45,288 nucleotides of DNA from sequence record NC_073323.1. One strand, written 5' to 3'. Shown here one piece after another: positions 3,859 through 39,052 of the stretch. The first letter of the stretch is position 1. Every line of letters starts with the position of its first letter. Both the position numbers and the translations under genes were made by a program. The notes under the pieces are model-generated. The model saw only the letters and a list, made by a program, of their open reading frames with translations, searched no databases and had not been told where the DNA came from. The stretch is from Escherichia phage vB_EcoS-phiEc3.

Positions 3859-4319
3859 TGATGGGCTTTTTCAAAGTAACTGATGTGCCGTCGCGTCGCG
3901 TAGTTCAGTACGCCCGCGTATCTGGCTCTGGTGAGAACGTGGTGTTTATTGAAGACGAAAGTGTACTGGGTACCCCTGTAGACGACATGCCGTTTGCGGA
4001 TAAAACCGGCATTGCGCTGCCTGCGGCCGGTATGCTCTATGAGATTCCGTATCTGGCGGACGCAGGCGATGTGTATTTCTCTGTGCAACCAAAAGACGCT
4101 GAACTGGCCGACGGCAGCGCGACTATCACTGTCGAAGTTAAAGCAGGTGAAGCGCCGTATGCACTGACCTGGTACAAAGACGGTAAGGAAGTTGTCAACG
4201 CCCCGGAAGAGGCACTTTCCTTGACGGTTAACGCAGTGGGTGAATACTTCGTTAAAGTTACCGATGCTGATGGTGTAGAGGCTGTCAGTAAAGCTGCGAA
4301 GGTCACTAAGCCCGAATGA
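3858..4319 (+). CDS. Ig-like domain protein (possible capsid decoration)
   Basis: ATGATG start after AGGGGA RBS; C-terminal beta-rich segment with APYxLxWYKDG motif typical of Ig-like folds. Confidence 0.6.
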   Translation: MMGFFKVTDVPSRRVVQYARVSGSGENVVFIEDESVLGTPVDDMPFADKTGIALPAAGMLYEIPYLADAGDVYFSVQPKDAELADGSATITVEVKAGEAPYALTWYKDGKEVVNAPEEALSLTVNAVGEYFVKVTDADGVEAVSKAAKVTKPE

Positions 4320-4323
4320 TAAA

Positions 4324-4349
4324 AGGCCCCATTAAGGGGCCTTAGTTTT
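4324..4349. terminator. Bidirectional intrinsic terminator (GGCCCC-ATTAA-GGGGCC flanked by A and T runs)
   Basis: Perfect GC stem, AAAA upstream and TTAGTTTT downstream, between convergent genes. Confidence 0.6.
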
Positions 4350-4552
4350 CAACGGAATCTTGTGTTTAAATCCTGCTCGTGGACGACCCTCAGAACAGTG
4401 TCATAATCCCCGTATCTTCCAGGTTCAAATACATCTAATGCCTTGTAAGCAGACATTGCGTCAGGGAAAACCTGCAGAACCTTTTTAACACGGCACAAGT
4501 CACCGTCGAACTCTTCATCGAACTCTTGAACTACTTCGCAAATTGCATACAT
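4349..4552 (-). CDS. Hypothetical protein, 67 aa, opposite-strand insert in head module
   Basis: ATG start, own minus-strand promoter at 4580-4608, ends at bidirectional terminator. Confidence 0.55.
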   Translation of the reverse strand: MYAICEVVQEFDEEFDGDLCRVKKVLQVFPDAMSAYKALDVFEPGRYGDYDTVLRVVHEQDLNTRFR

Positions 4553-4579
4553 TTTTCACCTCCTGCTTAAGTTAACTGA

Positions 4580-4608
4580 ATAGTACCCTATTATATTGGG
4601 GTGTGCAA
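4580..4608 (-). promoter_or_regulatory. Sigma70-like promoter TTGCAC-17-TACTAT (conserved element copy)
   Basis: -35 at 4603-4608, -10 at 4580-4585 on minus strand; 33-bp core repeated near-identically at 13949-13977 and 37708-37736. Confidence 0.5.
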
Positions 4609-4707: not shown

Positions 4708-4817
4708 CTGAGCTTGTGAAGTATGAACAAGCGACCGCGGCGCTGGCAGGTAACGGAGCGGGACGTAAGTCCTGAGTGTAGTTACGCTGACGCGTTCGGA
4801 AGGGCCATACTCTATTG
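4708..4817 (+). ncRNA. Candidate structured leader RNA, copy 1
   Basis: Paralogous to 37431-37541; three helices supported by compensatory changes; no conserved ORF. Confidence 0.5.
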
Positions 4818-5505: not shown

Positions 5506-6210
5506 ATGAATCGTTTTTTACGTTATCCGTTCCAGGAAGAAGCTGGGGCAGAAGATAAAGCTGGTGGCGGTGACGCGCCGAAAATGTTCACCGCTGAAGA
5601 AGTTCAGGCGCTGATTGAGAAAGAAGTTGCCGGGCTTAAGGCTAATCAGGAAGCATTGTTGGCGGAGAAGAAAGAAGCCGCTCGCAAAGCAAAAGAGGCC
5701 GAAGAAGAACGGCAGCGCGCGCACCAGGAGGCGTTAAAAGCCGCTGGTAAGATGGATGAGTTCGAAAAGACGATTCGTAGCCAGTATGACCCGGTGTTAG
5801 CCGAGAAAGACGGTCGCATCTCCAGAATGGCAGAGCGTATCCTCGGCAGCGAACGTAAAGCGGTGCTAGGCTCTTTCGCGGGTGACTTTATTACCCCAGA
5901 AGCAGTGGACATTCTTGCGCCGTTCGTTAAGACTGAGTTCGAAGGCGATGATGTGGTTACTAAGTTTGTTGGCGCAGACGGCAACGTAATCACGACTGAC
6001 CCGGAACAGTTCCGCAAATACTTGCGAGAACACAAAGCGTTTTCACATTTGATTAAAGCAAATGCAGCTTCCGGCGGCGGGGCTTCCGGTAGCAAAGGCG
6101 GCGGGGCCGCACCAGCGTTTAAAGACATGAGTGAAGCGGAGCGTATCGCTCTGTACGAATCGAACCCTGCCGAATTTGAACGGCAACTTAAAGCCCTGAG
6201 GAAAAAATAA
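5506..6210 (+). CDS. Scaffolding protein
   Basis: Coiled-coil Ala/Glu/Lys-rich protein immediately upstream of major capsid gene; ATG at 5506 after AGGGGA (track ORF starts 5452). Confidence 0.6.
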   Translation: MNRFLRYPFQEEAGAEDKAGGGDAPKMFTAEEVQALIEKEVAGLKANQEALLAEKKEAARKAKEAEEERQRAHQEALKAAGKMDEFEKTIRSQYDPVLAEKDGRISRMAERILGSERKAVLGSFAGDFITPEAVDILAPFVKTEFEGDDVVTKFVGADGNVITTDPEQFRKYLREHKAFSHLIKANAASGGGASGSKGGGAAPAFKDMSEAERIALYESNPAEFERQLKALRKK

Positions 6211-7259
6211 TGGCAATTACTACTATCGGCGACATCGTAACTGGTAAAGAATCGGTAATCCTGTCCTACATGACAGAGGACCCGGTAGAGAAAACCGCGT
6301 TCTTCCAGTCCGGTATCCTTACCTCGACTCCGTATGCCGCCGCTATCGCAAACGGCCCGTCCAACAAAGCGGTCCTGCCGTACTGGAAAGCTATTGATAC
6401 CTCTATCGAGCCGAACTACTCGAACGACGTATATCAGGACGTCGCCACCCCGCGTAACGTGCAAACCGGTGAGATGGATGTTCGCGTAGCTTACCTGAAC
6501 GAAGGTTTTGGTCAGGCTGACCTGACGGTAGAACTGACCAGCCAGAATCCGCTGCAATCCGTGGCTTCCCGTCTGGATAACTTCTGGCAGCGTCAGGCAC
6601 AACGCCGTCTTATTGCTACCGCGCTCGGTCTGTACAATGATAACGTAGCGGCTACCGATGCGTACCACGAGCAGAACGACATGGTTATTGACGTGTCCGC
6701 TACTCTGGGCTTCGACTCCGGCGCGTTCATCGATGCTACCCAGACTATGGGCGATGCGCTGATGGGTAACGGTGGTGAAGTGCTTGGCGCTATCGCGATG
6801 CACAGCTTCGTTTATGCGCAGGCGCGTAAGCAGCAGCTTATCGACTTCATTCGCGACGCTGACAACAACACCATGTTCGCCACCTACCAGGGCTATCGTG
6901 TGATTGTTGACGACAGCATGACCGTAGTCGGAACTGGCAACAGCCGTAAGTTCATCTCCATCATCTTCGGCAACGGTGCTATCGGTTACGGCGAAGGTTC
7001 TCCGTCAAACCCGCTGGAATACGAGCGCGAAGCGTCTCGCGGTAACGGTGGTGGTGTCGAAACCCTGTGGACCCGTAAGACCTGGTTGCTGCATCCGTTT
7101 GGTTACAGTTTCACCAGCACTGTAATCACCGGCAACGGCACCGAGACTATCGCCCGCTCTGCTTCCTGGCAGGACCTGGCGAACGCTTCCAACTGGAACC
7201 GTGTGGTTGACCGTAAGCATGTACCGATTGCCTTCCTGGTAACTGGTGTCGGGGCTTAA
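6210..7259 (+). CDS. Major capsid protein
   Basis: 349 aa, follows scaffold with overlapping stop/start, followed by strong terminator. Confidence 0.7.
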   Translation: MAITTIGDIVTGKESVILSYMTEDPVEKTAFFQSGILTSTPYAAAIANGPSNKAVLPYWKAIDTSIEPNYSNDVYQDVATPRNVQTGEMDVRVAYLNEGFGQADLTVELTSQNPLQSVASRLDNFWQRQAQRRLIATALGLYNDNVAATDAYHEQNDMVIDVSATLGFDSGAFIDATQTMGDALMGNGGEVLGAIAMHSFVYAQARKQQLIDFIRDADNNTMFATYQGYRVIVDDSMTVVGTGNSRKFISIIFGNGAIGYGEGSPSNPLEYEREASRGNGGGVETLWTRKTWLLHPFGYSFTSTVITGNGTETIARSASWQDLANASNWNRVVDRKHVPIAFLVTGVGA

Positions 7260-10496: not shown

Positions 10497-11663
10497 ATGG
10501 CTACAACTCCTTTTAAGGGCGCGAATACCGCGCAATTCTATGTGGCGGAAGTGACCCCGGGCGTAACACCGGCTAACCCGGTATGGTCGCCGTTGCGCAA
10601 CACGGGCGGCGTTCCTGCCATTACCCGCGACACGCTGACCTCCAACGAACTTGACGGCAGCCGAGAAACCACATCCATCCGCACCGGTAACAAGCAGGTT
10701 AGCGGAGAATACGCTATTGAGCTTAGCTCTAAAAGTCAGGACGACTGGTTAGCCGGGGCTTTAGGCTCTACGTGGCAATCCGGCGTTTCCCTGTCAGGAC
10801 TATCGATTACCGTCGCACCCGCGGGCAAGACGTTCACACGCGCTACCGGCAGTTTTATCACTGACGGAGTTGGGGTAGGCGACCTGATTGCGTTTACCGA
10901 TTTAACAGGCGATAACGCAAAACCATTTATTGTTACTGCAGTAACGGCTACGGTTGTTACTGGTGCGGGCATCCAACACACCCTGACCACCGAGACAAAA
11001 ACTAGTAAGGCTAAAACTGGCGACACGTTGGAAACCGGTAACACGTGTAAGACGTTCTCTATCCTTACCTGGTACAAAGGCCAGTGCGGCGGTACTGACG
11101 CGTACACGTTAACCAAAGGCGTGGAAGTTTCTGGTTTTACCATCGAACAGGCTGTTAACGCGATGGTAACTGGCAGCTTCCCATTCATCGGTCGCAGTCA
11201 GGAGATTCTCACTACGCCGCCGACCGGTTCCAACTTCTCATCTGTTACTTTTGGTGATGAGCCGTTCTCTTCGGTTGACGTTTCCGTGTTCGATGGCTCT
11301 ACGCCGTTGCGTTGTGATAGCCTTACCATCACCAACGACAACAGCGCGTCCGCGCAGTTCGAACTCGGCAACTCTAACGTTGCGTTTGTGGAACGTAGCC
11401 GCGCAGCTAACACCTTCTCCATCTCCGGTAAGCTGTATGACATGGCTATGATTCAGAAGTTTATCAACGAGCAGCAGGTAGAGATTAACTCTATTCTGGC
11501 AGGGGTAAACGGGGCTATGTCTTTCAGTCTGAAACGAGCCGAACTTACGGCGGTTACACCAGAGATTGGCGGCCCGGAGTCAATCACCCAGAGCATAGAA
11601 GGACAGTCCACAGGCAACCAGTACCAGTCGTCTATTGTAATTCAACGTATCACCTACGCATAA
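10497..11663 (+). CDS. Major tail protein (gpV-like N-terminal domain with C-terminal extension)
   Basis: N-terminus FKGANTAQFYVAEV...PANP resembles lambda V; RBS AGAGG; strong terminator follows. Confidence 0.55.
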   Translation: MATTPFKGANTAQFYVAEVTPGVTPANPVWSPLRNTGGVPAITRDTLTSNELDGSRETTSIRTGNKQVSGEYAIELSSKSQDDWLAGALGSTWQSGVSLSGLSITVAPAGKTFTRATGSFITDGVGVGDLIAFTDLTGDNAKPFIVTAVTATVVTGAGIQHTLTTETKTSKAKTGDTLETGNTCKTFSILTWYKGQCGGTDAYTLTKGVEVSGFTIEQAVNAMVTGSFPFIGRSQEILTTPPTGSNFSSVTFGDEPFSSVDVSVFDGSTPLRCDSLTITNDNSASAQFELGNSNVAFVERSRAANTFSISGKLYDMAMIQKFINEQQVEINSILAGVNGAMSFSLKRAELTAVTPEIGGPESITQSIEGQSTGNQYQSSIVIQRITYA

Positions 11664-11666
11664 AAC

Positions 11667-11692
11667 TAAGGCCCCGAAAGGGGCCTTTTTCT
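11667..11692 (+). terminator. Intrinsic terminator (GGCCCC-GAAA-GGGGCC then TTTTT)
   Basis: Perfect 6-bp GC stem with GNRA loop and T run. Confidence 0.7.
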
Positions 11693-11828
11693 CATCTAGG
11701 CTTCTCTTTATGCCACAACCAAGTATCAAAATTAGGGTCATACACTAGCCAACCCCCGTCAATCTCAAAATCGTTACCTGTTAAGGCTTTAAAGAAGTTA
11801 ATAATGAGTTTCATAAAATACCTCGTAG

Positions 11829-12059
11829 TTATTCGTCGATATTGCTTCTATACTCCCGTAACTTCTCCAGACTTTCAATTGCTTCCGCTAAGTCGGTTCC
11901 TGTGTCCTTGTGCCCACGAAGACCCATACACAGCAGCTTCTTCAATGCGTGCTGTAGCGCCGGGTCGCGGATATCGAAGGCGCGGAGCACATCGTAAACG
12001 TCTACAGTCATAGTGCTGCCGTGGGTGTTTGCCATTGTGCGGTTGTATTTATTGGTCAT
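11829..12059 (-). CDS. Hypothetical protein, 76 aa
   Basis: Last gene of minus-strand cassette. Confidence 0.5.
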   Translation of the reverse strand: MTNKYNRTMANTHGSTMTVDVYDVLRAFDIRDPALQHALKKLLCMGLRGHKDTGTDLAEAIESLEKLREYRSNIDE

Positions 12060-12060
12060 C

Positions 12061-12549
12061 TTACTTGTCCTTTCCGTGTGATTTTAAGTGCGTTGAGTCA
12101 CCGCCGCACGCATAACCCGTAACCGCGTGCGTCGTGATTCCTAAGCTGCGGAAATGCTTAATCACCACCGGCGAGTCGTCGAATGCGCACAAGATTCTTT
12201 CCAGTCCGAAAGCACGCAACACCTCTTCTTTAATTACGATGTCTTTTCTGTTGTCGTGTTTGCTGCGCATGATTAGCGTGTCAAACCTAACGTTATTCTC
12301 TCGTAACCATTCGCGAGTCTCCTCCTCAGCGTCATCACTTCGCCCGGTAAGGATAATTATAGTAAGTCCGGAATGCCACAGTACGCTACACAAATGGATA
12401 TTGTCGTATATCGGAGCGTCATCTTTGCAGGCCATGTTAAATGGCTTCCACGCCCACGTTTCTCCGTAGTTATCTTTTGGTAACAGGTGTAAGCGATGGG
12501 TACCGTCGGCCAATGTCCCGTCTAAATCGAAAATTACAATATCTTTCAT
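12061..12549 (-). CDS. HAD-family phosphatase, T4 Pnk 3'-phosphatase-domain-like
   Basis: N-terminal DxDGT motif (VIFDLDGTLA) and C-terminal RKDIVIKEEV...AFDDSPVVI pattern as in polynucleotide 3'-phosphatases. Confidence 0.65.
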   Translation of the reverse strand: MKDIVIFDLDGTLADGTHRLHLLPKDNYGETWAWKPFNMACKDDAPIYDNIHLCSVLWHSGLTIIILTGRSDDAEEETREWLRENNVRFDTLIMRSKHDNRKDIVIKEEVLRAFGLERILCAFDDSPVVIKHFRSLGITTHAVTGYACGGDSTHLKSHGKDK

Positions 12550-13676
12550 CCCAGCATCTCCGGTGAAATAGTTAAACGTGCGACCTCGCCATATTCGGCG
12601 CTATAAGTAATTACATTTGCACTGCGGCCCGACATCCATCCGCCGCGAGAGGCGTAGGCGTCTTTAGCCGCTAAGGTGCGGTGTTGCTCAACAATCATGT
12701 TACGGCTTTCTACAATCTTCTGGTGGTGCAGATGGCCTACGTGGGCGTAGCTGTAAACACTCTCGCCGAACGCTTTACGGAACTTGGCAATCATAACCGG
12801 TTCGATAGCGTCGAATCGTGCTTTATGCCCGTGATGGAAGAACAGCGTCGTTTTGCCGTGTTGCACCATCTTGTAAACATCCGGCGACGTATCGACGAAT
12901 ACACGAGGCTCGTTGTCGTACAGTGTGCTGAACATCTCCGCCAGCCAAATCATCCCGGATTCGTCGTGGTTCCCCTGAACTATAAGCAAGCGAACAGTTT
13001 TATGCTTAACCAGAGCCATATCAACAACACGGCGGACCATGCGAATCATGTAGCGGACAAGTTTCTGGTAACGCGTGTCGGCGTCAAGGACATGACCACT
13101 CGCCGGTGTAACGGCGTCAAGACTATCGAAGTGAGCTAAGTCGCCAAGAAGATTAATAACCCCCGTACCTGCATCCGGTGCTTTCTGAAACGCAGCATCA
13201 AACCAACGAGAGAATAAGTCCTCCGCGATTTTCATATCCCAGTCGTCGCCGCTCTCGTCAGCCCAGGCTAACATACCGAGATGGAAATCAGATACCGTGT
13301 AAAGATTGAGTAGTTTATCGTCACGTTTGGCTCGTGCCGGTTTAACAGGCGCAACGGGCGTAATCTCTGACTTCATGCCCTCTATTACGGCTTTCATCAA
13401 TTCAACCTGACGTTCGGCATCAGCGTCGGTCTTAACCCATTGCAACTTAGTGTTGCCGAACTCGTCCACCAGGGACGACGTTCCTTTAATCTTGTAACCG
13501 TCTGGTACAAGGTGACTAACGTCGCGCCCGTGGCCTACGCCTTTCTTAGCCAGCTTCGCTTTACGGATTCGGATAACGCGGTCTGAGATTCCGTATTTAC
13601 GGGCGATATCGATATTCTTCATCCCGGCGTTCAATTCTTCCTGTAATTGCTCGTCGGTTATTTTCTTCTGGGCCAT
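12546..13676 (-). CDS. Calcineurin-like metallophosphoesterase with N-terminal HTH-like region
   Basis: Motifs SDFH, GDLAHFD, GNHD, GHLHH in canonical order; ATG at 13676 after GAGGAAG (track ORF extends to 13781). Confidence 0.65.
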   Translation of the reverse strand: MAQKKITDEQLQEELNAGMKNIDIARKYGISDRVIRIRKAKLAKKGVGHGRDVSHLVPDGYKIKGTSSLVDEFGNTKLQWVKTDADAERQVELMKAVIEGMKSEITPVAPVKPARAKRDDKLLNLYTVSDFHLGMLAWADESGDDWDMKIAEDLFSRWFDAAFQKAPDAGTGVINLLGDLAHFDSLDAVTPASGHVLDADTRYQKLVRYMIRMVRRVVDMALVKHKTVRLLIVQGNHDESGMIWLAEMFSTLYDNEPRVFVDTSPDVYKMVQHGKTTLFFHHGHKARFDAIEPVMIAKFRKAFGESVYSYAHVGHLHHQKIVESRNMIVEQHRTLAAKDAYASRGGWMSGRSANVITYSAEYGEVARLTISPEMLG

Positions 13677-13714
13677 GCTTACTTCCTCGTGTTTAGGATT
13701 TGTCTTATAGTAGC

Positions 13715-13906
13715 CTACTTCTCTTTCACGTTCGAGTTGCAAGCCCAGATTAAAATGAATACCCACGGCAACAGAATCCACCCGAGAAATAAGTTAGCCA
13801 TGAATATCGCCAGCTTTGCTTTATGGTTACGCATATGTGCCACCAAAAACGGGATAAAATAAACGGCTACAAAAATAATTAAGAAGAACATAGTGATACC
13901 GGTCAT
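13715..13906 (-). CDS. Small membrane protein
   Basis: Two predicted TM helices; start at internal ATG 13906 with AGGAG RBS (track start 13933 lacks RBS). Confidence 0.5.
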   Translation of the reverse strand: MTGITMFFLIIFVAVYFIPFLVAHMRNHKAKLAIFMANLFLGWILLPWVFILIWACNSNVKEK

Positions 13907-13948
13907 AACATAACTCCTGATTTGAGATAACATCGTTGGTGTAAGTGA

Positions 13949-13977
13949 ATAGTACGCTATTATATTGGGGAGTGCAA
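13949..13977 (-). promoter_or_regulatory. Sigma70-like promoter TTGCAC-17-TACTAT (conserved element copy)
   Basis: Same 33-bp core as 4580-4608; drives minus-strand cassette; plus-orientation -10 TATATT overlaps. Confidence 0.5.
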
Positions 13978-14084
13978 GTAGTGTGCTAGAATAATTTTGC
14001 GCCTAGTGTCGCACACGAAAAGCGGGTGGTTCCCGTCTGGCGCATTTCCTTTAACCAGTAACCTCTTAACCAAAGGATTAAAGA

Positions 14085-14501
14085 ATGAAACTTTCTGATT
14101 TTTATTACGAAGCGGAAGCCGAAAAGGGCGCACGTATGCCGATACCGCTAAAAGACGGTACTGATTCCGGGGAATGGCTTAATGTTGTTTCTCCTGAGGC
14201 GGACGTTGCCGTTAAGGCTATGCGCGCGTTCACCCTTGCATACCGGGCAGTATTAGGGAAATTAAAACCGCTTCGTGATAAGTGCGAAGAGATGAAAGAT
14301 TTCTCTGAATACAACCTGAAGATGGAAGACGCGGCGACGGACCTTAACCGTCAGTTAGCGATTGAATTGGTTAACGGGTGGAGCCTTGACGACGAATTCA
14401 ATAAAGAGAATCTGAACACACTCCTGACGCAATATAAACGACTCGCGGAACTTGTTGTTGTGTTTCATAACGAACAACTGCACCAGCTACAGGAAAAGTA
14501 G
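14085..14501 (+). CDS. Tail assembly chaperone (gpG-like)
   Basis: Acidic 138 aa protein directly upstream of tape measure region. Confidence 0.55.
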   Translation: MKLSDFYYEAEAEKGARMPIPLKDGTDSGEWLNVVSPEADVAVKAMRAFTLAYRAVLGKLKPLRDKCEEMKDFSEYNLKMEDAATDLNRQLAIELVNGWSLDDEFNKENLNTLLTQYKRLAELVVVFHNEQLHQLQEK

Positions 14502-14506
14502 ACGCG

Positions 14507-14866
14507 TTGCTCCAGTTCGCCCGTTGGAACTTCATAACCCGCCACAAACGGCGGGAATTTGACAGTATCGCCGATGGGCATAAAGCCGCGCTAATTGCTA
14601 TGGGGGTTATGCAAGACGCGCCGGATGCAACGCAGGCCGCTGGGCCGGAATGCCCCCCTGAGCTACTAACCACATTTGAGAAGTACAGGGAAATTAAATT
14701 CACCCGCCGAGTGGACGACGACGGCATCAAGATGTACCCGCGCGAGCAATTACGATGGTCAGATTTAGTGGCGTACAGCACCGTTTCAGGCCAGAATATA
14801 GGGATGTTCGAATCCGACATCATCATGAGCTTAGACGCTATTTTCGAGGGTAGAAACGATGGCTGA
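14507..14866 (+). CDS. Tail assembly protein (gpT-like; possible frameshift extension of upstream ORF)
   Basis: ORF in -1 frame relative to 14085-14501, open from 14471; TTG start only. Confidence 0.35.
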   Translation: MLQFARWNFITRHKRREFDSIADGHKAALIAMGVMQDAPDATQAAGPECPPELLTTFEKYREIKFTRRVDDDGIKMYPREQLRWSDLVAYSTVSGQNIGMFESDIIMSLDAIFEGRNDG

Positions 14867-22067: not shown

Positions 22068-24053
22068 ATGTCAAGCGGATGCGGTGACGTTTTAAGCCTG
22101 GCGGATTTACAGACCGCCAAGAAACATCAGATTTTCGAGGCCGAGGTTATCACTGGCAAATCCGGCGGTGTAGCTACGGGTGCAGACATTGATTACGCAA
22201 CAAATCAGGTTACCGGGCAGACGCAGAAGACGCTTCCTGCCGTGTTGCGCGACGCGGGTTTTTCTCCGGTGTCATGGGATTTCTCCACAGGCGGCACGTT
22301 AACCGTTAACGACCGGGACAAGGTGGTGTATGACCCTGTTAGCGAAACATGGTACTCGTACGCAGGTACGTTACCAGTTGTTGTCCCTGCATCGTTTAAT
22401 CCAGTCGGTAACGCTAACTGGAAGCCGCAGACAGACCCAAATTTGCGTAATGATTTGGCGTCAAGTACCGCCGGTTTGGGGGCTTCACTGGTGTCTTTTT
22501 CCAACGGTAACACCGTTGAAACATTATCTGACGCGGAAGGTGCCAAGAACATAGGCAGTGGCGAAAGGAGTTTGCTTGCACGTAACAATGATATTAAGCA
22601 TTCTGGCGACTTTTCTACCCTTCAAGCCGCGGTAGATGCGTCGTTAACTAAAAACGACTTAATTGTTTCTCCGGGTGAGTATACAGAAGCAATCACTCTG
22701 GGTAGTAAGCAGATAAAAGGTGTAGGTGGTGCTGCAATATTAAAACCATCGGCAAACTATGCAAATACTGTACAGGTTAATTTATCCACCCCGCACTGGC
22801 AGTTTCGACACAGCGGTGGTTTTGCCGTAGATGGTACAGGTACAACTGGGGCCGTAGGTATTAGTTTTGACCCGTCAGACCAATATTCCGGACGTCATAA
22901 TTTTAGTGATTTATACATCCACAACATCAACAAGGCCATTCAGAAGCCTTCCGGGAACATCGGCAATACGTGGAGAAGTATTGGGGTATCTACGTGTGAT
23001 TGGGGGTATTACGCGATTAGTGGCTCAGAGATGCATTGCGGGGCCGATACCCTCTACAATATCCACTTCGACGGCATCTCCACCTATGCCGTCTACCTAA
23101 ACGGTACTGTCGATAACGGTGGGATAGGCGGATGGTGGCTTAAAGACTCCATTATTGAGGCTTCCGGAGGCGGCGGGATATACTTAAAAAGCAAATCGGG
23201 TGACTGTCCTACATCTCCATGCGGGGTATCCAATGTATGGATGGAAGCTATTGCAACATCATCGGCTGTTCAGGTAGATGGCGTGGCGCAAAAACCGCGA
23301 GTTCTCAAGTTGGTAGACACCGCGATATTCTTTGCTGAGTATTCTTATCTCAACAACATCGAGCTATCCAACTCCAACTTAGTAACTTATGGTTGCCGTT
23401 TTGACAACGCTGATGGTAATCAGGATATTGTAGTGGATGCACAAAGCACCATTGTAGCCCACGATGTGTATTTAAACGGCAGTTCTGGAAAGGACGTTAT
23501 TGTAGAGTCTGTCGCGTCGCAATCCGCAACGGTAGCCACTACAAACTTGTCTCTACGAGGAAATTTAACAAGGGGACGAGTGTTTAATACGCCGACGGGG
23601 AATAAGTTAAAAGCTATCACATTTGACTCAGGTAGCCATAATTTTTCTGGTAGCGGTACCGTTAACGGTTCGACTGTATCTGACGGACTTCACGCCGCTA
23701 CATGTACCGAATTTTCATTCCCTGGGTCCGGTTTATATGAAATGGTAGCGTCAAGAACGACACTTACATCCGGTAGATGGTACGTGTGGGGCGTCAACTC
23801 TCGCCTCCAATCAGGAACAGCAGATGTGAGTATAACGTTAGGTATTACTATGGGTAGCGTTTATACTAAGTCTGGTGAGTGGATTAGCACATTTGGGGTG
23901 GGTAAAGCTTCCGCTAACGGTACTGTAGGTCTGTACGTCTCTACTGGGGGAGGTTCAGGTGCTGTTATCAGATTTAGTGACTTCTTCATCGCTGAGTTTA
24001 CGACGCAGGCTCAGGCTTTAGCTTTCGCTAACTCCCGAATGTCGTTGGCTTAA
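22068..24053 (+). CDS. Tailspike / tail fibre with predicted beta-helical receptor-binding or depolymerase domain
   Basis: 661 aa, last structural gene, Gly/Ser/Thr/Asn-rich repeats, followed by terminator. Confidence 0.55.
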   Translation: MSSGCGDVLSLADLQTAKKHQIFEAEVITGKSGGVATGADIDYATNQVTGQTQKTLPAVLRDAGFSPVSWDFSTGGTLTVNDRDKVVYDPVSETWYSYAGTLPVVVPASFNPVGNANWKPQTDPNLRNDLASSTAGLGASLVSFSNGNTVETLSDAEGAKNIGSGERSLLARNNDIKHSGDFSTLQAAVDASLTKNDLIVSPGEYTEAITLGSKQIKGVGGAAILKPSANYANTVQVNLSTPHWQFRHSGGFAVDGTGTTGAVGISFDPSDQYSGRHNFSDLYIHNINKAIQKPSGNIGNTWRSIGVSTCDWGYYAISGSEMHCGADTLYNIHFDGISTYAVYLNGTVDNGGIGGWWLKDSIIEASGGGGIYLKSKSGDCPTSPCGVSNVWMEAIATSSAVQVDGVAQKPRVLKLVDTAIFFAEYSYLNNIELSNSNLVTYGCRFDNADGNQDIVVDAQSTIVAHDVYLNGSSGKDVIVESVASQSATVATTNLSLRGNLTRGRVFNTPTGNKLKAITFDSGSHNFSGSGTVNGSTVSDGLHAATCTEFSFPGSGLYEMVASRTTLTSGRWYVWGVNSRLQSGTADVSITLGITMGSVYTKSGEWISTFGVGKASANGTVGLYVSTGGGSGAVIRFSDFFIAEFTTQAQALAFANSRMSLA

Positions 24054-24056
24054 AAC

Positions 24057-24082
24057 TAAGGCCCCAAACGGGGCCTTTTCTC
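24057..24082. terminator. Bidirectional intrinsic terminator (GGCCCC-AAAC-GGGGCC then TTTT)
   Basis: Between convergent structural and replication modules. Confidence 0.7.
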
Positions 24083-27307: not shown

Positions 27308-27595
27308 CTAACTATAATAGTTCGCTATTAGGGCGTCAACCTGTTTAAACGAACCAACGACAAAAACATTAGCACCACGCTTACGCATCCGCTCGTGCTC
27401 CCGTAACTGGTGTGGATCCGGCTTCGTGCTTTCGTCTTTCTTTATCTCGACGAACCAGATGACGCCGCCGGGGAGAATTACCAGCAGGTCAGGGGCGCCG
27501 GAACGTCCTTCGTAGGAAAGTTTACGAACGAGGCCACCAATGGCCTCGAATCGGTCTTTTGCGTATTTCTGTATTTTGCCCTCAGGCGTACTCAT
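27308..27595 (-). CDS. VRR-NUC domain nuclease
   Basis: Motif VIWFVEIKKDESTKPDPHQ (PD-(D/E)XK-like); ATG at 27595 after GAGGGG (track starts at GTG 27631). Confidence 0.6.
   Translation of the reverse strand: MSTPEGKIQKYAKDRFEAIGGLVRKLSYEGRSGAPDLLVILPGGVIWFVEIKKDESTKPDPHQLREHERMRKRGANVFVVGSFKQVDALIANYYS
27311..27339 (-). promoter_or_regulatory. Sigma70-like promoter TTGACG-17-TATAGT with AATAG-N4-CTATT dyad in spacer
   Basis: Same architecture as 31071-31099 and 33982-34010. Confidence 0.5.
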
Positions 27596-31017: not shown

Positions 31018-31070
31018 CGTGATTTCTCGCTTTTAAGTTTACTCCGGGAGCTGCCCGGCCAGTGATTAGA

Positions 31071-31099
31071 ACTATAATAGCTAACTATTCATGTGTCAA
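31071..31099 (-). promoter_or_regulatory. Sigma70-like promoter TTGACA-17-TATAGT with AATAG-N4-CTATT dyad
   Basis: Perfect -35, 17-nt spacer. Confidence 0.55.
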
Positions 31100-33953: not shown

Positions 33954-33981
33954 ATCTTCACCTCTCGTTTGGTATGGGCTA

Positions 33982-34010
33982 ACTATAATAGCGAACTATT
34001 CACTTGTCAA
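33982..34010 (-). promoter_or_regulatory. Sigma70-like promoter TTGACA-17-TATAGT with AATAG-N4-CTATT dyad
   Basis: Perfect -35, 17-nt spacer; divergent from HTH gene. Confidence 0.55.
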
Positions 34011-34014
34011 TGGG

Positions 34015-34043
34015 CTTTTCTAAAATAATTAATATGGTACTAT
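34015..34043 (+). promoter_or_regulatory. Candidate promoter for HTH gene (TACTAT -10, weak -35)
   Basis: -10 TACTATTCA matches conserved element; AAGGAG RBS at 34061. Confidence 0.3.
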
Positions 34044-34074
34044 TCACACATCAACTGACTAAGGAGTAATTGAC

Positions 34075-37430: not shown

Positions 37431-37541
37431 CTGAGCTTGTGAGATATCGCAAGCGACCGCGGAGCGGCAGGGAACGCAACGCGTGCCATTAGGCACTTGA
37501 GTGTAGTTCCGCTGACGCTTTCGGAAGGGTCAAAGTCTATT
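37431..37541 (+). ncRNA. Candidate structured leader RNA, copy 2
   Basis: Paralogous to 4708-4817 with compensatory substitutions in two helices. Confidence 0.5.
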
Positions 37542-37609
37542 GTTAATCCCGCCTAAATATCCAAGTCACTGATAATTAAAAGTTTCTATAGTTGCCGTGA
37601 GCAAGGTAG

Positions 37610-37707: not shown

Positions 37708-37736
37708 TTGCACACCCCAACATAATAGGATACTAT
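37708..37736 (+). promoter_or_regulatory. Sigma70-like promoter TTGCAC-17-TACTAT (conserved element copy)
   Basis: Same core as 4580-4608 and 13949-13977; AGGAG RBS follows. Confidence 0.5.
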
Positions 37737-37770
37737 TCACTTATCGGAACGAGACAGAGGAGTGATGGTT

Positions 37771-37956
37771 ATGTTTAAGAAGGGTCAGTTGGTTAAAACA
37801 AAACGCGGCGGACAGTACGTAATAGTTACCCAGAATGAGGATGAATATAGTACCGCTGTAGACGTATGGGGTCTTGTACGAAAGAAACATGGTTACGCTT
37901 TCAGAGATAATTTAACACTCATCGGCAACAATTTTAAATTCAAAGGGGTGAAGTGA
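37771..37956 (+). CDS. Hypothetical early protein, 61 aa
   Basis: ATG 9 nt after AGGAG; track ORF begins at GTG 37762. Confidence 0.5.
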   Translation: MFKKGQLVKTKRGGQYVIVTQNEDEYSTAVDVWGLVRKKHGYAFRDNLTLIGNNFKFKGVK

Positions 37957-38189
37957 TGCAAATCATAATTACAGATAACACCGTTATATACGAAGAAGAT
38001 GGTGATACTCCCGAGAAAATAGGCGTAAATGTGGGTGATGTTTTCAATGTACTGGATTCCTGTGAGGATGGCTGGTGGATTAAGACAGGAAGATACACAA
38101 TCCTGGTAACTAAGGCAGAAGCGAAGGTATACACAACGGCATCTAATCATGATGCTCGTGCCGACGACTCTGAGGGAGGTTGCCGTTAA
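37953..38189 (+). CDS. Hypothetical early protein, 78 aa
   Basis: ATGA-coupled start. Confidence 0.5.
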   Translation: MMQIIITDNTVIYEEDGDTPEKIGVNVGDVFNVLDSCEDGWWIKTGRYTILVTKAEAKVYTTASNHDARADDSEGGCR

Positions 38190-38344
38190 TGAAAATTCGA
38201 ATAACTGACCGCAGGCTTATAGATTTCGGTATCTCGGTAGGTGATGTTTTTCTGGCGTTCAGCAGCAACCATTATGGTTTTATGATTGAGTACAAAGGGT
38301 CATTATTGTTCGTGTATCGGGATGAATGCGAGGTTCTGGTATGA
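38189..38344 (+). CDS. Hypothetical early protein, 51 aa
   Basis: RBS GAGGGAGG, TAATG coupling; below track cutoff. Confidence 0.4.
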   Translation: MKIRITDRRLIDFGISVGDVFLAFSSNHYGFMIEYKGSLLFVYRDECEVLV

Positions 38345-38502
38345 GAGAAGCATTCGAACGGTGGGCCATCGTCGAGGGTCTGCCGGTTAATAAGGGTTCG
38401 AAGAAAGAGTACCTGAACGTTAAGACGCGTCTCGCGTGGCGGGCGTGGAAAGCTGGTGCGAATGTAATGGCTGGCGCATTTGAGAAGAGAGGCGATTTAT
38501 GA
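38341..38502 (+). CDS. Hypothetical early protein, 53 aa
   Basis: ATGA coupling at both ends; below track cutoff. Confidence 0.4.
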   Translation: MREAFERWAIVEGLPVNKGSKKEYLNVKTRLAWRAWKAGANVMAGAFEKRGDL

Positions 38503-38684
38503 GCAAGTGGATTAAGTGTAGTGAGCGGATGCCGGAGCCTTATGAATACGTTCTTGTAACTGATTGTTTTGTTGGCTGTGAGGTTATGCGTGTTAATTCA
38601 GATGGCTACTGGGGGCCTGCAAAGAGTTTATATCACGGTGATATAACGCACTGGATGCCGTTACCTGAGCCGCCGGAGGTGTGA
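38499..38684 (+). CDS. DUF551-like phage protein
   Basis: C-terminal HWMPLPEPP motif characteristic of DUF551. Confidence 0.55.
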   Translation: MSKWIKCSERMPEPYEYVLVTDCFVGCEVMRVNSDGYWGPAKSLYHGDITHWMPLPEPPEV

Positions 38685-38718
38685 TGTTCAATAGTTTAAG
38701 ATTTTACTGAGTGACTTA

Positions 38719-38746
38719 CGCTGCTACACAGCAGCGTATCATTTTT
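38719..38746 (+). terminator. Intrinsic terminator (CGCTGCT-ACAC-AGCAGCG then T-rich)
   Basis: 7-bp stem followed by TATCATTTTTCT. Confidence 0.6.
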
Positions 38747-38808
38747 CTCATTTTTGTTCTATTTCACCAAACGCAACAATCGAAGCGACTATTGCAGGAG
38801 ACGCAACA

Positions 38809-38985
38809 ATGAAAACGTTCACAGAGAAACTTATGGGGTTCGTTGCAAAGCGAGACGCTGCGGCTCGTAGTTACCGTAAATGTGCCAACTGCGGCAGCGA
38901 GCAGGTACAGTTAATCTCGTACCTGGGCGACTCGGTTACACATAAGTGCAGAAAGTGCCGCCACGTACATTCGCAACACCAATAA
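38809..38985 (+). CDS. Zinc-ribbon small protein, 58 aa
   Basis: CANCGS...CRKCRH (two CxxC pairs), RBS AGGAG 8 nt upstream. Confidence 0.45.
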   Translation: MKTFTEKLMGFVAKRDAAARSYRKCANCGSEQVQLISYLGDSVTHKCRKCRHVHSQHQ

Positions 38986-38992
38986 AATTTAC

Positions 38993-39021
38993 TTGCACAC
39001 TAAGATAGAATAGGCTACTAT
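38993..39021 (+). promoter_or_regulatory. Sigma70-like promoter TTGCAC-17-TACTAT
   Basis: Contains GAATAGG-N-CTACTATTC dyad. Confidence 0.5.
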
Positions 39022-39052
39022 TCATTTACACAAACTAGAGGAGAGACAGAGG

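What the first reader, a model, noticed from the sequence alone, without database searches (positions are those of the whole stretch)
11829..13977. Opposite-strand cassette inside the tail gene block: membrane protein, HTH-fused metallophosphoesterase and Pnk-like HAD 3'-phosphatase
Between the major tail gene (terminator at 11667-11692) and the tail chaperone genes lies a four-gene minus-strand unit with its own conserved promoter (13949-13977): a two-TM protein, a calcineurin-like phosphoesterase with HTH-like N-terminus, a HAD phosphatase resembling the T4 Pnk 3'-phosphatase domain, and a 76-aa protein. No kinase or ligase accompanies the two phosphoesterases, so this is not a classical end-healing/sealing system. 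It has the footprint of an accessory (moron) module; nucleic-acid 3'-end processing, nucleotide-signal degradation or anti-defence roles are all speculative.
Basis: partly seen in the sequence, partly recalled or inferred. Interest (0 to 1): 0.7.

Follow-up and report, generated by a model that had tools for sequence, protein, structure and literature searches.

The report
Early accessory operon inside tail genes
This is a real, separately promoted backward-facing operon in a known E. coli phage (Kagunavirus). It joins a superinfection-blocking membrane protein, a widely conserved DNA-nuclease-like enzyme with a DNA-binding head, and a swappable 3'-phosphatase; the gene families are all known and annotated, but what the operon does has never been tested.

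Summary
The window is Escherichia phage vB_Eco_K-01 (PQ435593.1, Kagunavirus). Between the tail-tube gene and the tail chaperone genes lies a minus-strand operon, from a conserved promoter (13949-13977) to a bidirectional terminator (11668-11687).

Genes:
- T4 Imm-type superinfection-immunity protein.
- 376-aa HTH-fused metallophosphoesterase (MPE): all catalytic motifs invariant, fold closest to PolD-DP1/SbcD/Mre11 nucleases.
- T4-Pnkp-type HAD 3'-phosphatase.
- 76-aa divergent DUF3310-like protein.
- 40-aa ORF.

The interpretation needs correcting.
- Imm and MPE are near-universal at this site in Guernseyvirinae. The MPE occurs in about 2,050 phage genomes, so it is a core gene, not a moron.
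- Only the genes downstream of the MPE are swappable.
- "No kinase" reflects a local gene swap. Close relatives carry a T4-gp1-like dNMP kinase exactly where this phage has the 76-aa and 40-aa ORFs.
- No ligase exists in the genome, so RNA repair is unlikely.

Most likely this is an early DNA-processing module: a nuclease acting on host or replicating DNA, plus 3'-end or nucleotide dephosphorylation. T5 A1 and mycobacteriophage Gp48 are the experimental precedents. This function is inferred, not shown.

It is a new member of known kinds, of moderate interest.

The parts
13949..13977 (-). Sigma-70-type promoter TTGCAC (13977-13972), 17-nt spacer, TACTAT (13954-13949). It overlaps a palindromic core AATAG-N4-CTATT.
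   Evidence: Sequence read. There are four copies of the element in the window. It is conserved upstream of the cassette in 16/16 Kagunavirus loci, and as a variant in Jerseyvirus. Promoter function is inferred; the transcription start has not been mapped.
13715..13906 (-). Superinfection-immunity (T4 Imm family) membrane protein with two TM helices, 63 aa. An alternative upstream ATG at 13933 would give 72 aa.
   Evidence: PF14373 E 1.8e-13 at 50.6 bits, above the 27.9 cut-off. phrog_1039 'immunity to superinfection' E 3e-24. AGGAG lies 7 nt before the ATG at 13906. GenBank XKC20978.1.
12546..13676 (-). HTH-fused metallophosphoesterase, 376 aa. It has a LuxR/sigma-4-like HTH (residues 8-44), a beta-hairpin plus helix (61-104) and an MPE core (119-376) with motifs D130xH132, G178D179xxH182, G235N236H237D238, H282, G314H315 and H317.
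12061..12549 (-). HAD-superfamily 3'-phosphatase of the T4 Pnkp phosphatase-domain type, 162 aa, with no kinase domain. Motifs: D8-L-D10-G-T, T68-G-R70, R100-K101-D102, D124-D125.
   Evidence: PF25109 HAD_PNKP E 8.7e-20 at 71.7 bits, above the 27.6 cut-off. phrog_415 E 3e-64. Best PDB sequence matches are Pnkp1 4xrp and T4 Pnk 5uj0/1ltq, with the catalytic motifs aligned. The start codon overlaps the MPE stop (ATGA).
11829..12059 (-). 76-aa divergent DUF3310-like protein (beta-hairpin plus three helices). It is the usual downstream neighbour of the MPE in Guernseyvirinae.
   Evidence: Present at >=60% identity in 392 phage records. 99% identical to fBC-Eco01 gp25. No Pfam or PDB hit. hhalign against the DUF3310-containing neighbour cluster gives prob 91.9%, E 6.8e-7. 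AF2 pLDDT 85.
11692..11814 (-). 40-aa ORF preceded by GAGG and ending at the terminator. Low-confidence gene.
   Evidence: Annotated as XKC20982.1. The DNA segment is found in only 3 phage records. No family match.
11668..11687 (.). Bidirectional intrinsic terminator hairpin (AAGGCCCC-GAAA-GGGGCCTT) that ends both the tail-tube transcript (+) and the cassette transcript (-).
   Evidence: Scored on both strands. A 91%-identical copy lies at 24048-24079 (D1).

Best explanation
The cassette is a separately transcribed, non-structural operon set in opposite orientation between the tail-tube and tail-chaperone genes of a virulent Kagunavirus. It is driven by the same promoter class as the phage's block of small early genes. 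It has a fixed part and a swappable part. The fixed part, kept at this position across Guernseyvirinae, is a T4 Imm-type inner-membrane protein and an HTH-tethered two-metal phosphodiesterase. The Imm protein most likely blocks DNA entry from superinfecting phages. The phosphodiesterase has an intact active site and a fold closest to the DNA nucleases PolD-DP1, SbcD and Mre11. It most likely binds DNA through its LuxR/sigma-4-like head and cuts or resects it. The target would be either the host chromosome (shutting down host and defence gene expression and releasing nucleotides, as shown for the MPE proteins T5 A1 and mycobacteriophage Gp48) or DNA ends arising during phage replication and recombination. 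A small DUF3310-like protein usually accompanies it and is a candidate partner or regulator. The swappable part in this phage is a Pnkp-type HAD 3'-phosphatase. It would remove 3'-phosphates from DNA ends or 3'-nucleotides, restoring 3'-OH ends that the polymerase and the host ligase can use, or feeding nucleotide recycling. In relatives this phosphatase travels with a T4-gp1-like dNMP kinase. Shown here: gene structure, family membership, catalytic motifs, fold, distribution, mosaic junctions and the promoter repeat. Inferred: early timing, nuclease activity, the substrates, and any cooperation between the proteins.
Confidence: 0.5

Rival explanations
1. RNA (tRNA) end-healing as a counter-defence. 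The MPE would open 2',3'-cyclic phosphates, the HAD would remove 3'-phosphates and (in relatives) the kinase would phosphorylate 5'-OH ends, repairing tRNAs cut by anticodon nucleases, as T4 Pnkp/Rnl1 and bacterial Pnkp/Hen1 do.
For: The HAD belongs to the Pnkp phosphatase family, and its best solved relatives are the RNA-repair Pnkp1 (4xrp) and T4 Pnk. Relatives place a P-loop kinase directly after it. An MPE domain performs 2',3'-cyclic phosphodiesterase and 3'-phosphatase healing in Clostridium thermocellum Pnkp (my own knowledge).
Against: No RNA or DNA ligase is present in the genome. This phage has no kinase. The relatives' kinase matches T4 gp1 dNMP kinase and adenylate kinases; T4 Pnk is not among the 60 best PDB matches listed. 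The MPE carries a DNA-binding HTH and is structurally nearest to DNA nucleases. The MPE is near-universal, whereas the HAD and kinase are patchy.
Confidence: 0.12
2. Degradation of immune signalling nucleotides. The MPE and/or the HAD would hydrolyse cyclic (oligo)nucleotide or other nucleotide second messengers of CBASS, Pycsar, Thoeris or type III CRISPR systems.
Confidence: 0.07
3. The HTH-MPE is mainly a DNA-binding regulator or architectural factor (a transcription switch, or a recombination/replication accessory like the MPE-fold Bxb1 gp47). It might act at the AATAG-N4-CTATT palindromes that overlap the phage's promoters, with catalysis secondary.
For: It has a LuxR/sigma-70-region-4-type HTH and a weak match to a 'late transcriptional activator' PHROG. 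It lies immediately upstream of the Q antiterminator in lambdoid-like relatives. Palindrome-bearing promoters recur across the genome. T5 A1 is reported to interact with RNA polymerase and dampen pre-early transcription. Bxb1 gp47 is an MPE-fold protein used as a recombination directionality factor (annotation of the neighbouring region; its role is from my own knowledge).
Against: All metal-binding and catalytic residues are invariant across 98 homologues down to 31% identity, which argues that catalysis is under selection. No binding data exist.
Confidence: 0.13
4. The genes are functionally unrelated passengers that merely share a permissive insertion site and a promoter, with no joint mechanism: Imm for exclusion, the MPE for its own core role, the HAD as a stand-alone nucleotidase, and the small ORFs as selfish or neutral.
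For: There is gene-by-gene mosaicism with junctions at gene boundaries. The HAD slot is otherwise filled by a 66-aa ORF, an HNH gene or nothing. The kinase slot is filled by the 76-aa gene. The 40-aa segment occurs in only 3 records. Imm is absent from the MPE neighbourhood outside Guernseyvirinae.
Against: MPE-HAD-kinase adjacency recurs in Drexlerviridae at only 42% MPE identity and in IMG/VR loci L048 and L052. MPE-DUF3310 adjacency recurs in about 20 of 53 diverged loci with the gene order reversed. Start and stop codons overlap between the MPE and HAD genes.
Confidence: 0.18

Closest known systems
Annotated Guernseyvirinae cassette (e.g. Escherichia phages vB_EcoS-Golestan, fEg-Eco06 and fBC-Eco01; Salmonella Jerseyvirus phages)
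   Same: Same position between the tail-tube and tail-chaperone genes, same orientation, same promoter element, and the same Imm and MPE genes (MPE 89-99% identical). The window itself is GenBank PQ435593.1, annotated 'superinfection immunity protein / DNA repair exonuclease / polynucleotide kinase / hypothetical x2'.
   Different: This phage combines the HAD of the 'HAD + kinase' form with the 76-aa and 40-aa genes of the 'no-HAD' form. No other record among 50,697 phage records covered the whole 2.8-kb region in one piece, and none of the 80 IMG/VR loci had HAD together with the 76-aa gene.
T4 polynucleotide kinase/3'-phosphatase (Pnkp, pseT) and bacterial Pnkp1
   Same: The HAD domain is of the same Pfam family (PF25109), and the DxDGT, (S/T)GR, RKD and DD motifs align with T4 Pnk residues 161-294.
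   Different: It is a stand-alone 162-aa phosphatase with no kinase domain and no partner ligase. The kinase gene adjacent in relatives is dNMP-kinase-like (1dek), not Pnk-like.
Mre11 / SbcD / archaeal PolD DP1 nuclease-type metallophosphoesterases
   Different: Sequence identity is 12-18%. There is no capping domain, no OB fold, and no Rad50/SbcC or DP2 partner. There is a unique N-terminal HTH plus beta-hairpin module. Pfam Metallophos scores fall below the gathering thresholds.
Phage T5 pre-early operon (A2 DNA-binding protein, T5.005 2-TM protein, A1 metallophosphatase, Dmp 5'-dNMPase)
   Same: The component list matches by type: a small 2-TM membrane protein, a DNA-binding module, an MPE enzyme and a DLDGT-motif phosphatase, all under an early promoter. 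A1 alone degrades the host chromosome.
   Different: No specific homology: A1 against the MPE profile gives prob 17% over 19 columns, Imm against T5.005 gives E 0.13, and Dmp shares only the N-terminal HAD motif (E 5e-4). Here the DNA-binding module is fused to the enzyme. A1 does not appear among the 50 best BFVD fold matches.
Mycobacteriophage A10ZJ24 Gp48 / Bxb1 gp47 metallophosphoesterase
   Same: An early-expressed phage MPE. Gp48 is a DNase in vitro, is toxic, and degrades host DNA to silence defence genes (PMC12287305).
   Different: It is about 255 aa with no HTH, and similarity is only at superfamily level (hhalign prob 6% over motifs III-VI).
Lambda nin-region genes (NinB, NinG/Rap, DUF3310, Roi, NinI phosphatase)
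   Same: In diverged relatives the MPE lies between NinB/DUF3310/NinG and Q. Jerseyvirus cassettes add a Roi-like gene. Like the nin region, the cassette is a non-structural, gene-by-gene mosaic block.

Membership tests
T4 Imm superinfection-immunity family (PF14373) | HMM score above the curated cut-off | tested here: met
   50.6 bits against a cut-off of 27.9, E 1.8e-13; phrog_1039 E 3e-24.
T4 Imm superinfection-immunity family (PF14373) | Small protein with two transmembrane helices | tested here: met
   63 aa with two hydrophobic stretches, about residues 4-22 and 33-55, read from the sequence. No TM predictor was run.
T4 Imm superinfection-immunity family (PF14373) | Blocks DNA injection by superinfecting phage | not testable with these tools
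   Needs superinfection/exclusion assays.
Metallophosphoesterase (calcineurin-like) superfamily | Motifs DxH, GDxx(D/H), GNH(D/E), H, GH, GxH | tested here: met
   D130/H132, G178/D179/H182, N236/H237/D238, H282, G314/H315 and H317 are invariant or nearly invariant in 98 homologues.
Metallophosphoesterase (calcineurin-like) superfamily | Pfam Metallophos / Metallophos_2 score above the gathering threshold | tested here: not met
   21.7 bits against 27, and 18.8 against 21.5. Membership therefore rests on the motifs and the fold.
Metallophosphoesterase (calcineurin-like) superfamily | Beta-sandwich MPE fold | tested here: met
Mre11/SbcD nucleases | Nuclease-type MPE core | tested here: inconclusive
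Mre11/SbcD nucleases | C-terminal capping domain | tested here: not met
   The protein ends at residue 376, directly after the MPE core.
Mre11/SbcD nucleases | Rad50/SbcC ATPase partner gene | tested here: not met
   None is annotated in the genome. A Walker-A pattern in a recognisable ATPase was found only in the terminase ORF; three other pattern matches look like chance.
T4 Pnkp (bifunctional 5'-kinase/3'-phosphatase) | HAD 3'-phosphatase domain with DxDGT, (S/T)GR, RKD and DD motifs | tested here: met
   PF25109 at 71.7 bits against 27.6. The alignment to T4 Pnk 161-294 shows the motifs.
T4 Pnkp (bifunctional 5'-kinase/3'-phosphatase) | N-terminal P-loop polynucleotide kinase domain | tested here: not met
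   The protein has 162 aa and no P-loop, and the window has no kinase gene. The separate kinase in relatives matches 1dek dNMP kinase instead.
T4 Pnkp (bifunctional 5'-kinase/3'-phosphatase) | Activity on 3'-phosphate / 2',3'-cyclic phosphate nucleic-acid ends | not testable with these tools
   Needs enzyme assays.
RNA repair (healing plus sealing) systems | Associated ligase (Rnl1/Rnl2/Rnl5/RtcB or a Pnkp ligase domain) | tested here: not met
   No ligase among the 87 annotated genes.
DUF3310 (PF11753) | Pfam HMM match | tested here: not met
   No PF11753 hit for the 76-aa protein or for any of 22 homologues, even at E <= 10.
DUF3310 (PF11753) | Profile-level and positional relatedness to bona fide DUF3310 proteins | tested here: met
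   hhalign prob 91.9%, E 6.8e-7 against the cluster of MPE-adjacent genes. That cluster's representative scores PF11753 E 1.9e-17. Intermediates (L065, L051) share 41-45% identity with the 76-aa protein and share a C-terminal tail with canonical members.
Moron (autonomous accessory transcription unit) | Own promoter and terminator | tested here: met
   (sequence-level evidence only).
Moron (autonomous accessory transcription unit) | Sporadic presence among otherwise syntenic relatives | tested here: not met
   Imm and MPE are near-universal: MPE in 464 records against 493 for the tail tube at >=60% identity. Sporadic presence holds only for the HAD (69 records), the kinase (53) and the 40-aa ORF (3).

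The most novel reading that the evidence does not exclude
The HTH-metallophosphoesterase and its DUF3310-like neighbour may form a very widespread (over 2,000 sequenced phages: Guernseyvirinae, Drexlerviridae including T1 relatives, Dhillonvirus, Vibrio and lambdoid-like phages) but uncharacterised host-chromosome-degrading, defence-silencing nuclease module. It would be the functional equivalent of T5 A1/A2 and mycobacteriophage Gp48. The small protein would act as its regulator or as a self-protection factor, and the optional 3'-phosphatase and dNMP kinase would channel the breakdown products into phage DNA synthesis. If so, it could identify the nuclease behind the host-DNA breakdown described for phage T1 in the older literature (as I recall it).
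Probability: 0.25. Interest if true: 0.6.

Novelty: new member of a known kind. Interest (0 to 1): 0.35.

Why it matters
The cassette itself is already deposited and annotated, so the window adds no new kind of system. What this analysis adds is a sharper picture of which parts matter.

- The conserved element is the HTH-fused nuclease-like phosphoesterase, usually with a DUF3310-like partner. The Pnkp-like phosphatase is not the conserved part.
- This enzyme is a core gene in about 2,000 therapeutic-type coliphage, Klebsiella and Salmonella phage genomes, and no experiment on this family turned up in the literature searches run here.
- Two unrelated phage MPEs (T5 A1 and mycobacteriophage Gp48) have recently been shown to destroy host DNA and disable defences. 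This family is therefore an obvious and cheap candidate for the same test.
- The result would bear on phage-therapy genome curation. These genes are currently labelled "DNA repair exonuclease", "polynucleotide kinase" or "DNA polymerase II small subunit", all of which are misleading.

Tried and rejected
- **Split T4 Pnkp hypothesis.** I tested whether the HAD plus the neighbouring kinase of relatives is a split T4 Pnkp. Rejected: the kinase profile matches T4 gp1 dNMP kinase (1dek) and adenylate kinases, and T4 Pnk is not among the listed matches.
- **76-aa gene as a kinase remnant.** I tested whether the 76-aa gene is a remnant of the kinase gene. Rejected: there is no similarity. It is an intact gene that is 99% identical in other phages.
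- **Homology to precedents.** Specific homology of the MPE to T5 A1 and to Bxb1 gp47 is not supported beyond the superfamily motifs. Imm against T5.005 shows no similarity.
- **Searches that gave nothing useful.**
  - PADLOC models: only weak P-loop matches (E >= 0.019) for the relatives' kinase, and none for the window's proteins.
  - NCBIfam: only weak, sub-threshold matches.
  - PDB sequence search with the MPE: only a weak HTH match.
  - Profile and fold searches for the 76-aa protein: nothing meaningful.
  - Literature searches for Kagunavirus, Jerseyvirus or Drexlerviridae with phosphoesterase or kinase terms, and for T1 host DNA degradation: nothing.
  - The generic promoter scan did not pick up the cassette promoter, so support comes from repetition and conservation instead.
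  - The search for related loci with the 98-sequence alignment failed; a 10-sequence alignment worked.
  - The greedy ORF maps of GC-rich environmental contigs are noisy, so only clusters confirmed by Pfam were used.
- **Not attempted.** An MPE-76-aa complex prediction could not be attempted with the available tools.
Full report
**Identity of the window.** A megablast of 11500-14300 finds Escherichia phage vB_Eco_K-01 (PQ435593.1) at 100% identity over the full query. It also finds 453 further phage records, almost all Salmonella or Escherichia Guernseyvirinae (Kagunavirus, Jerseyvirus). The GenBank record already annotates the region as superinfection immunity protein, DNA repair exonuclease, polynucleotide kinase and two hypothetical proteins, on the strand opposite to the flanking tail genes.

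**Checking the observation.**
- The first ORF most likely starts at the ATG at 13906, which follows an AGGAG box, and not at 13933.
- The MPE gene starts at the ATG at 13676, after GAGGA.
- The HAD start codon overlaps the MPE stop codon, and the 76-aa gene starts one base after the HAD stop codon.
- A fifth ORF of 40 aa (11692-11814) ends at the terminator.
- The hairpin at 11668-11687 scores as an intrinsic terminator on both strands.
- The proposed promoter TTGCAC-17-TACTAT (13977-13949) is too weak in its -35 hexamer for the generic scan. It is nevertheless one of four copies of an about 35-nt element (for the repeat search).
  - Two copies head the plus-strand block of small genes at 37.7 and 39.0 kb.
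  - Two copies head minus-strand islands within the structural block, at 4.57 kb and here.
- The element sits upstream of the cassette in 16/16 Kagunavirus IMG/VR loci with complete upstream sequence. A variant with the same AATAG-N4-CTATT palindrome occurs in Jerseyvirus loci.
- GC content dips to 0.47-0.49 across the cassette, against 0.52-0.53 in the neighbouring structural genes.

**The proteins.**
1. *Membrane protein.* It is a member of the T4 Imm superinfection-immunity family (PF14373 at 50.6 bits against 27.9; phrog_1039).
2. *The 376-aa protein.*
   - It matches phrog_704 ("DNA repair exonuclease", E 6e-168) but only sub-threshold Pfam Metallophos models.
   - A search of 1.84 billion cluster representatives found 4,642 relatives.
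   - In an alignment of 98 relatives (31-50% identity), D130, H132, G178, D179, N236, H237, H282, G314 and H317 are invariant, and H182, D238 and H315 nearly so. That is the full two-metal MPE signature (DxH, GDxxH, GNHD, H, GH, GxH).
   - The AlphaFold model is confident (pLDDT 93.3). It shows a three-helix HTH (8-44), a flexible linker, a beta-hairpin plus helix (61-104) and the MPE core (119-376).
   - The HTH gives weak GerE/FixJ/LuxR-type matches.
   - There is no capping domain and no Rad50/SbcC-like gene in the genome. The protein therefore works like a nuclease-type MPE but is not an Mre11/SbcD family member.
3. *The 162-aa protein.* It scores 71.7 bits on PF25109 (Pnkp phosphatase domain). 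Its best solved relatives are Pnkp1 and T4 Pnk, with the DxDGT, (S/T)GR, RKD and DD motifs aligned. It has no kinase domain.
4. *The 76-aa protein.*
   - It has no Pfam, NCBIfam or PDB match, and its model (pLDDT 85) has no fold match.
   - It does match the C-terminal parts of several PHROG profiles.
   - In a neighbourhood clustering it falls in one cluster with MPE-adjacent genes, and that cluster's representative is a bona fide DUF3310 (PF11753, E 1.9e-17).
   - hhalign between the two sets gives 91.9% probability, E 6.8e-7. Intermediates share 41-45% identity with it.
   - I therefore call it a divergent DUF3310-like protein. The function of DUF3310 is unknown.

**Distribution and mosaicism.**
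- tblastn against 50,697 phage records gives the counts below.

| Protein | Records matched | Close matches |
|---|---|---|
| MPE | 2,051 (1,957 near full length) | 464 at >=60% identity |
| Adjacent tail-tube protein | 792 | 493 at >=60% identity |
| 76-aa protein | 772 | 392 at >=60% identity |
| Imm | 812 | 338 at >=60% identity |
| HAD | 2,286 | 69 at >=60% identity |
| Kinase of relatives | 1,532 | 53 at >=80% identity |

- The 60-80% MPE band also includes Dhillonvirus phages at 75-76% identity, so the 464-against-493 comparison is approximate.
- The MPE is extremely conserved: the top 120 metagenomic clusters are 97-99% identical.
- DNA comparison shows junctions at the gene boundaries.
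  - Against fEg-Eco06 (Imm-MPE-HAD-kinase), homology runs from 14400 down to 12061, the HAD stop, and resumes at 11692. The 76-aa and 40-aa ORFs (11693-12060) therefore replace the kinase gene.
  - Against fBC-Eco01 (Imm-MPE-66 aa-76 aa-52 aa), the 76-aa gene is 93% identical, but 12059-12538 (the HAD) replaces the 66-aa ORF.
- The 40-aa segment occurs in only three records. One of them, hz69, has Imm-like, MPE, 66 aa, 76 aa and 40 aa in that order.
- Jerseyviruses carry Imm-like, MPE, optionally an HNH gene, the 76-aa gene and a Roi-like gene.
- No other record covers the whole query in one piece. None of nine HAD-bearing Kagunavirus IMG/VR loci lacks the kinase.
- This phage is therefore a rare recombinant, and its lack of a kinase is secondary.

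**Context outside the subfamily.**
- In Klebsiella phage KP36 (Drexlerviridae; MPE 42% identical) the MPE, HAD and kinase genes are adjacent, between Dam/helicase genes and the lysis genes. There is no Imm, and the block is not in the tail module.
- In a Dhillonvirus and in Vibrio phages the MPE stands alone near lysis genes.
- Among 53 diverged IMG/VR loci (47-60% identity), a few have HAD (+/- kinase) directly downstream (L048, L050, L052, L053).
- About 20 of these loci have a DUF3310(-like) gene 0-750 nt upstream of the MPE.
- The surrounding genes there are DnaB, NinB, NinG, Ref, Q antiterminator, holin and terminase, which is a lambda nin-like region.
- The recurrent partners of the MPE are therefore DNA-metabolism genes and DUF3310.

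**The relatives' kinase.** Its profile matches T4 gp1 dNMP kinase (1dek, E 1.9e-5) and adenylate kinases. T4 Pnk is not among the 60 matches listed.

**Timing.**
- The promoter class is shared with the small-gene block.
- In the only Kagunavirus transcriptome found (vB_Eco_K1B4), the Imm gene was classed with the DNA methylase and polymerase genes. It fell in a different class from the tail protein gene the paper names (PMC12645636).
- That study is coarse, so this is only supportive.

**Mechanism.**
- The best-supported reading is an early, non-structural operon.
- Imm excludes competitors at the membrane.
- The HTH-MPE acts on DNA as a metal-dependent nuclease.
- The HAD removes 3'-phosphates from DNA ends or 3'-nucleotides.
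- The DUF3310-like protein is a candidate partner.
- Two experimentally studied phage MPEs give precedents for what such a nuclease is for.
  - T5 A1 is necessary and sufficient for host DNA degradation. It is encoded with a 2-TM protein, the DNA-binding protein A2 and the DLDGT-motif phosphatase Dmp (bioRxiv 10.64898/2026.04.02.716235).
  - Mycobacteriophage A10ZJ24 Gp48 is early, toxic, a DNase in vitro, and silences host defence genes (PMC12287305).
- Neither is specifically related to this family, so these are analogies and not evidence of orthology.
- A role in processing ends during phage recombination and replication fits the nin-like context equally well.

**Rivals.**
- RNA end-healing is weakened by three things: the absence of any ligase and kinase here, the dNMP-kinase character of the relatives' kinase, and the DNA-nuclease-like, HTH-bearing MPE.
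- Hydrolysis of signalling nucleotides is not excluded by fold alone, but it does not explain the HTH or the core-gene conservation.
- A mainly regulatory role is contradicted by the invariant active site.
- The genes could also be unrelated passengers. That is partly contradicted by the recurrent MPE-HAD-kinase and MPE-DUF3310 adjacencies.

**Verdict.**
- The feature is real and was described correctly.
- The "accessory end-processing cassette lacking a kinase" framing should be replaced. The better description is a conserved Imm + HTH-nuclease-like MPE (+ DUF3310-like) core with a hot spot for gene swapping downstream. In this phage that hot spot happens to hold a Pnkp-type phosphatase without its usual dNMP-kinase companion.
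- All the families are known and the locus is already annotated.
- The open question is the function of the MPE family, and it is directly testable.

Noticed in passing
window 4272-4608: A second opposite-strand island lies in the structural block. It is a single 67-aa minus-strand gene (about 4272-4475; GenBank CDS0083), preceded by a 92%-identical copy of the cassette promoter element (4573-4608) and followed by a hairpin at 4320-4347 (TAAAAGGCCCCATTAAGGGGCCTTAGTT). The design matches that of the cassette.
   Followed up: partly
window 27310-27339, 31070-31099, 33981-34010, 34028-34052, 37721-37745, 39006-39027, 4574-4595, 13943-13964: A palindromic core (A)ATAG-N4-CTATT(CA) is embedded in two promoter classes. 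One is TTGCAC-17-TACTAT (four copies). The other is TTGACA-17-TATAGT, read on the minus strand and driving the replication-gene block. It looks like a shared operator for an unidentified phage regulator.
   Followed up: partly
window 13965-13992 (+): A possible rightward promoter for the tail chaperone/tape-measure genes (TTGGGG-16 nt-TAGAAT, with a TG at the extended -10 position). Its -35 region lies inside the spacer of the leftward cassette promoter and vice versa, which would make the two mutually exclusive. The equivalent sequence at the 4.57-kb copy is not conserved.
   Followed up: no
window 13960-14073 (-): GenBank annotates a 37-aa ORF (CDS0062) in the divergent intergenic region upstream of the cassette promoter. 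It has no family match and is probably not a gene.
   Followed up: partly
loci L045-L087 (IMG/VR): In lambdoid-like environmental phages the HTH-MPE occupies the slot between NinG/DUF3310 and the Q antiterminator. That is the slot where lambda itself carries the unrelated NinI protein phosphatase (the lambda detail is from my own knowledge).
   Followed up: partly
window 14085-14866 (+): The tail assembly chaperone ORF (14085-14501) is followed by an ORF at 14507-14866 that starts only with TTG. GenBank annotates a shorter 'hypothetical protein' there, while relatives annotate two chaperones. This is the usual place for a programmed frameshift product, and it was not examined.
   Followed up: no
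window about 6133-7259 (+): GenBank splits the major head protein into two overlapping CDS (record 38034-39026 and 37900-38073). This suggests a frameshift, a sequencing error or a programmed event.
   Followed up: no
window 4773-4817 and 37498-37542: A 45-nt direct repeat at 89% identity (D5), lying 33 kb apart. One copy is near the 4.57-kb island and the other is just upstream of the early promoter at 37.7 kb. It is unexplained.
   Followed up: no
whole window: The window is 45,288 nt and the GenBank record is 45,245 nt. The ends of the window do not overlap each other, so the 43-nt difference is unexplained.
   Followed up: partly
L095 (Bxb1) 6021-6788: The Bxb1-type mycobacteriophage MPE (gp47) is the protein known, from my own knowledge, as the Bxb1 recombination directionality factor and as required for phage DNA replication. 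The GenBank record attaches the RDF label to the neighbouring gp46.
   Followed up: no
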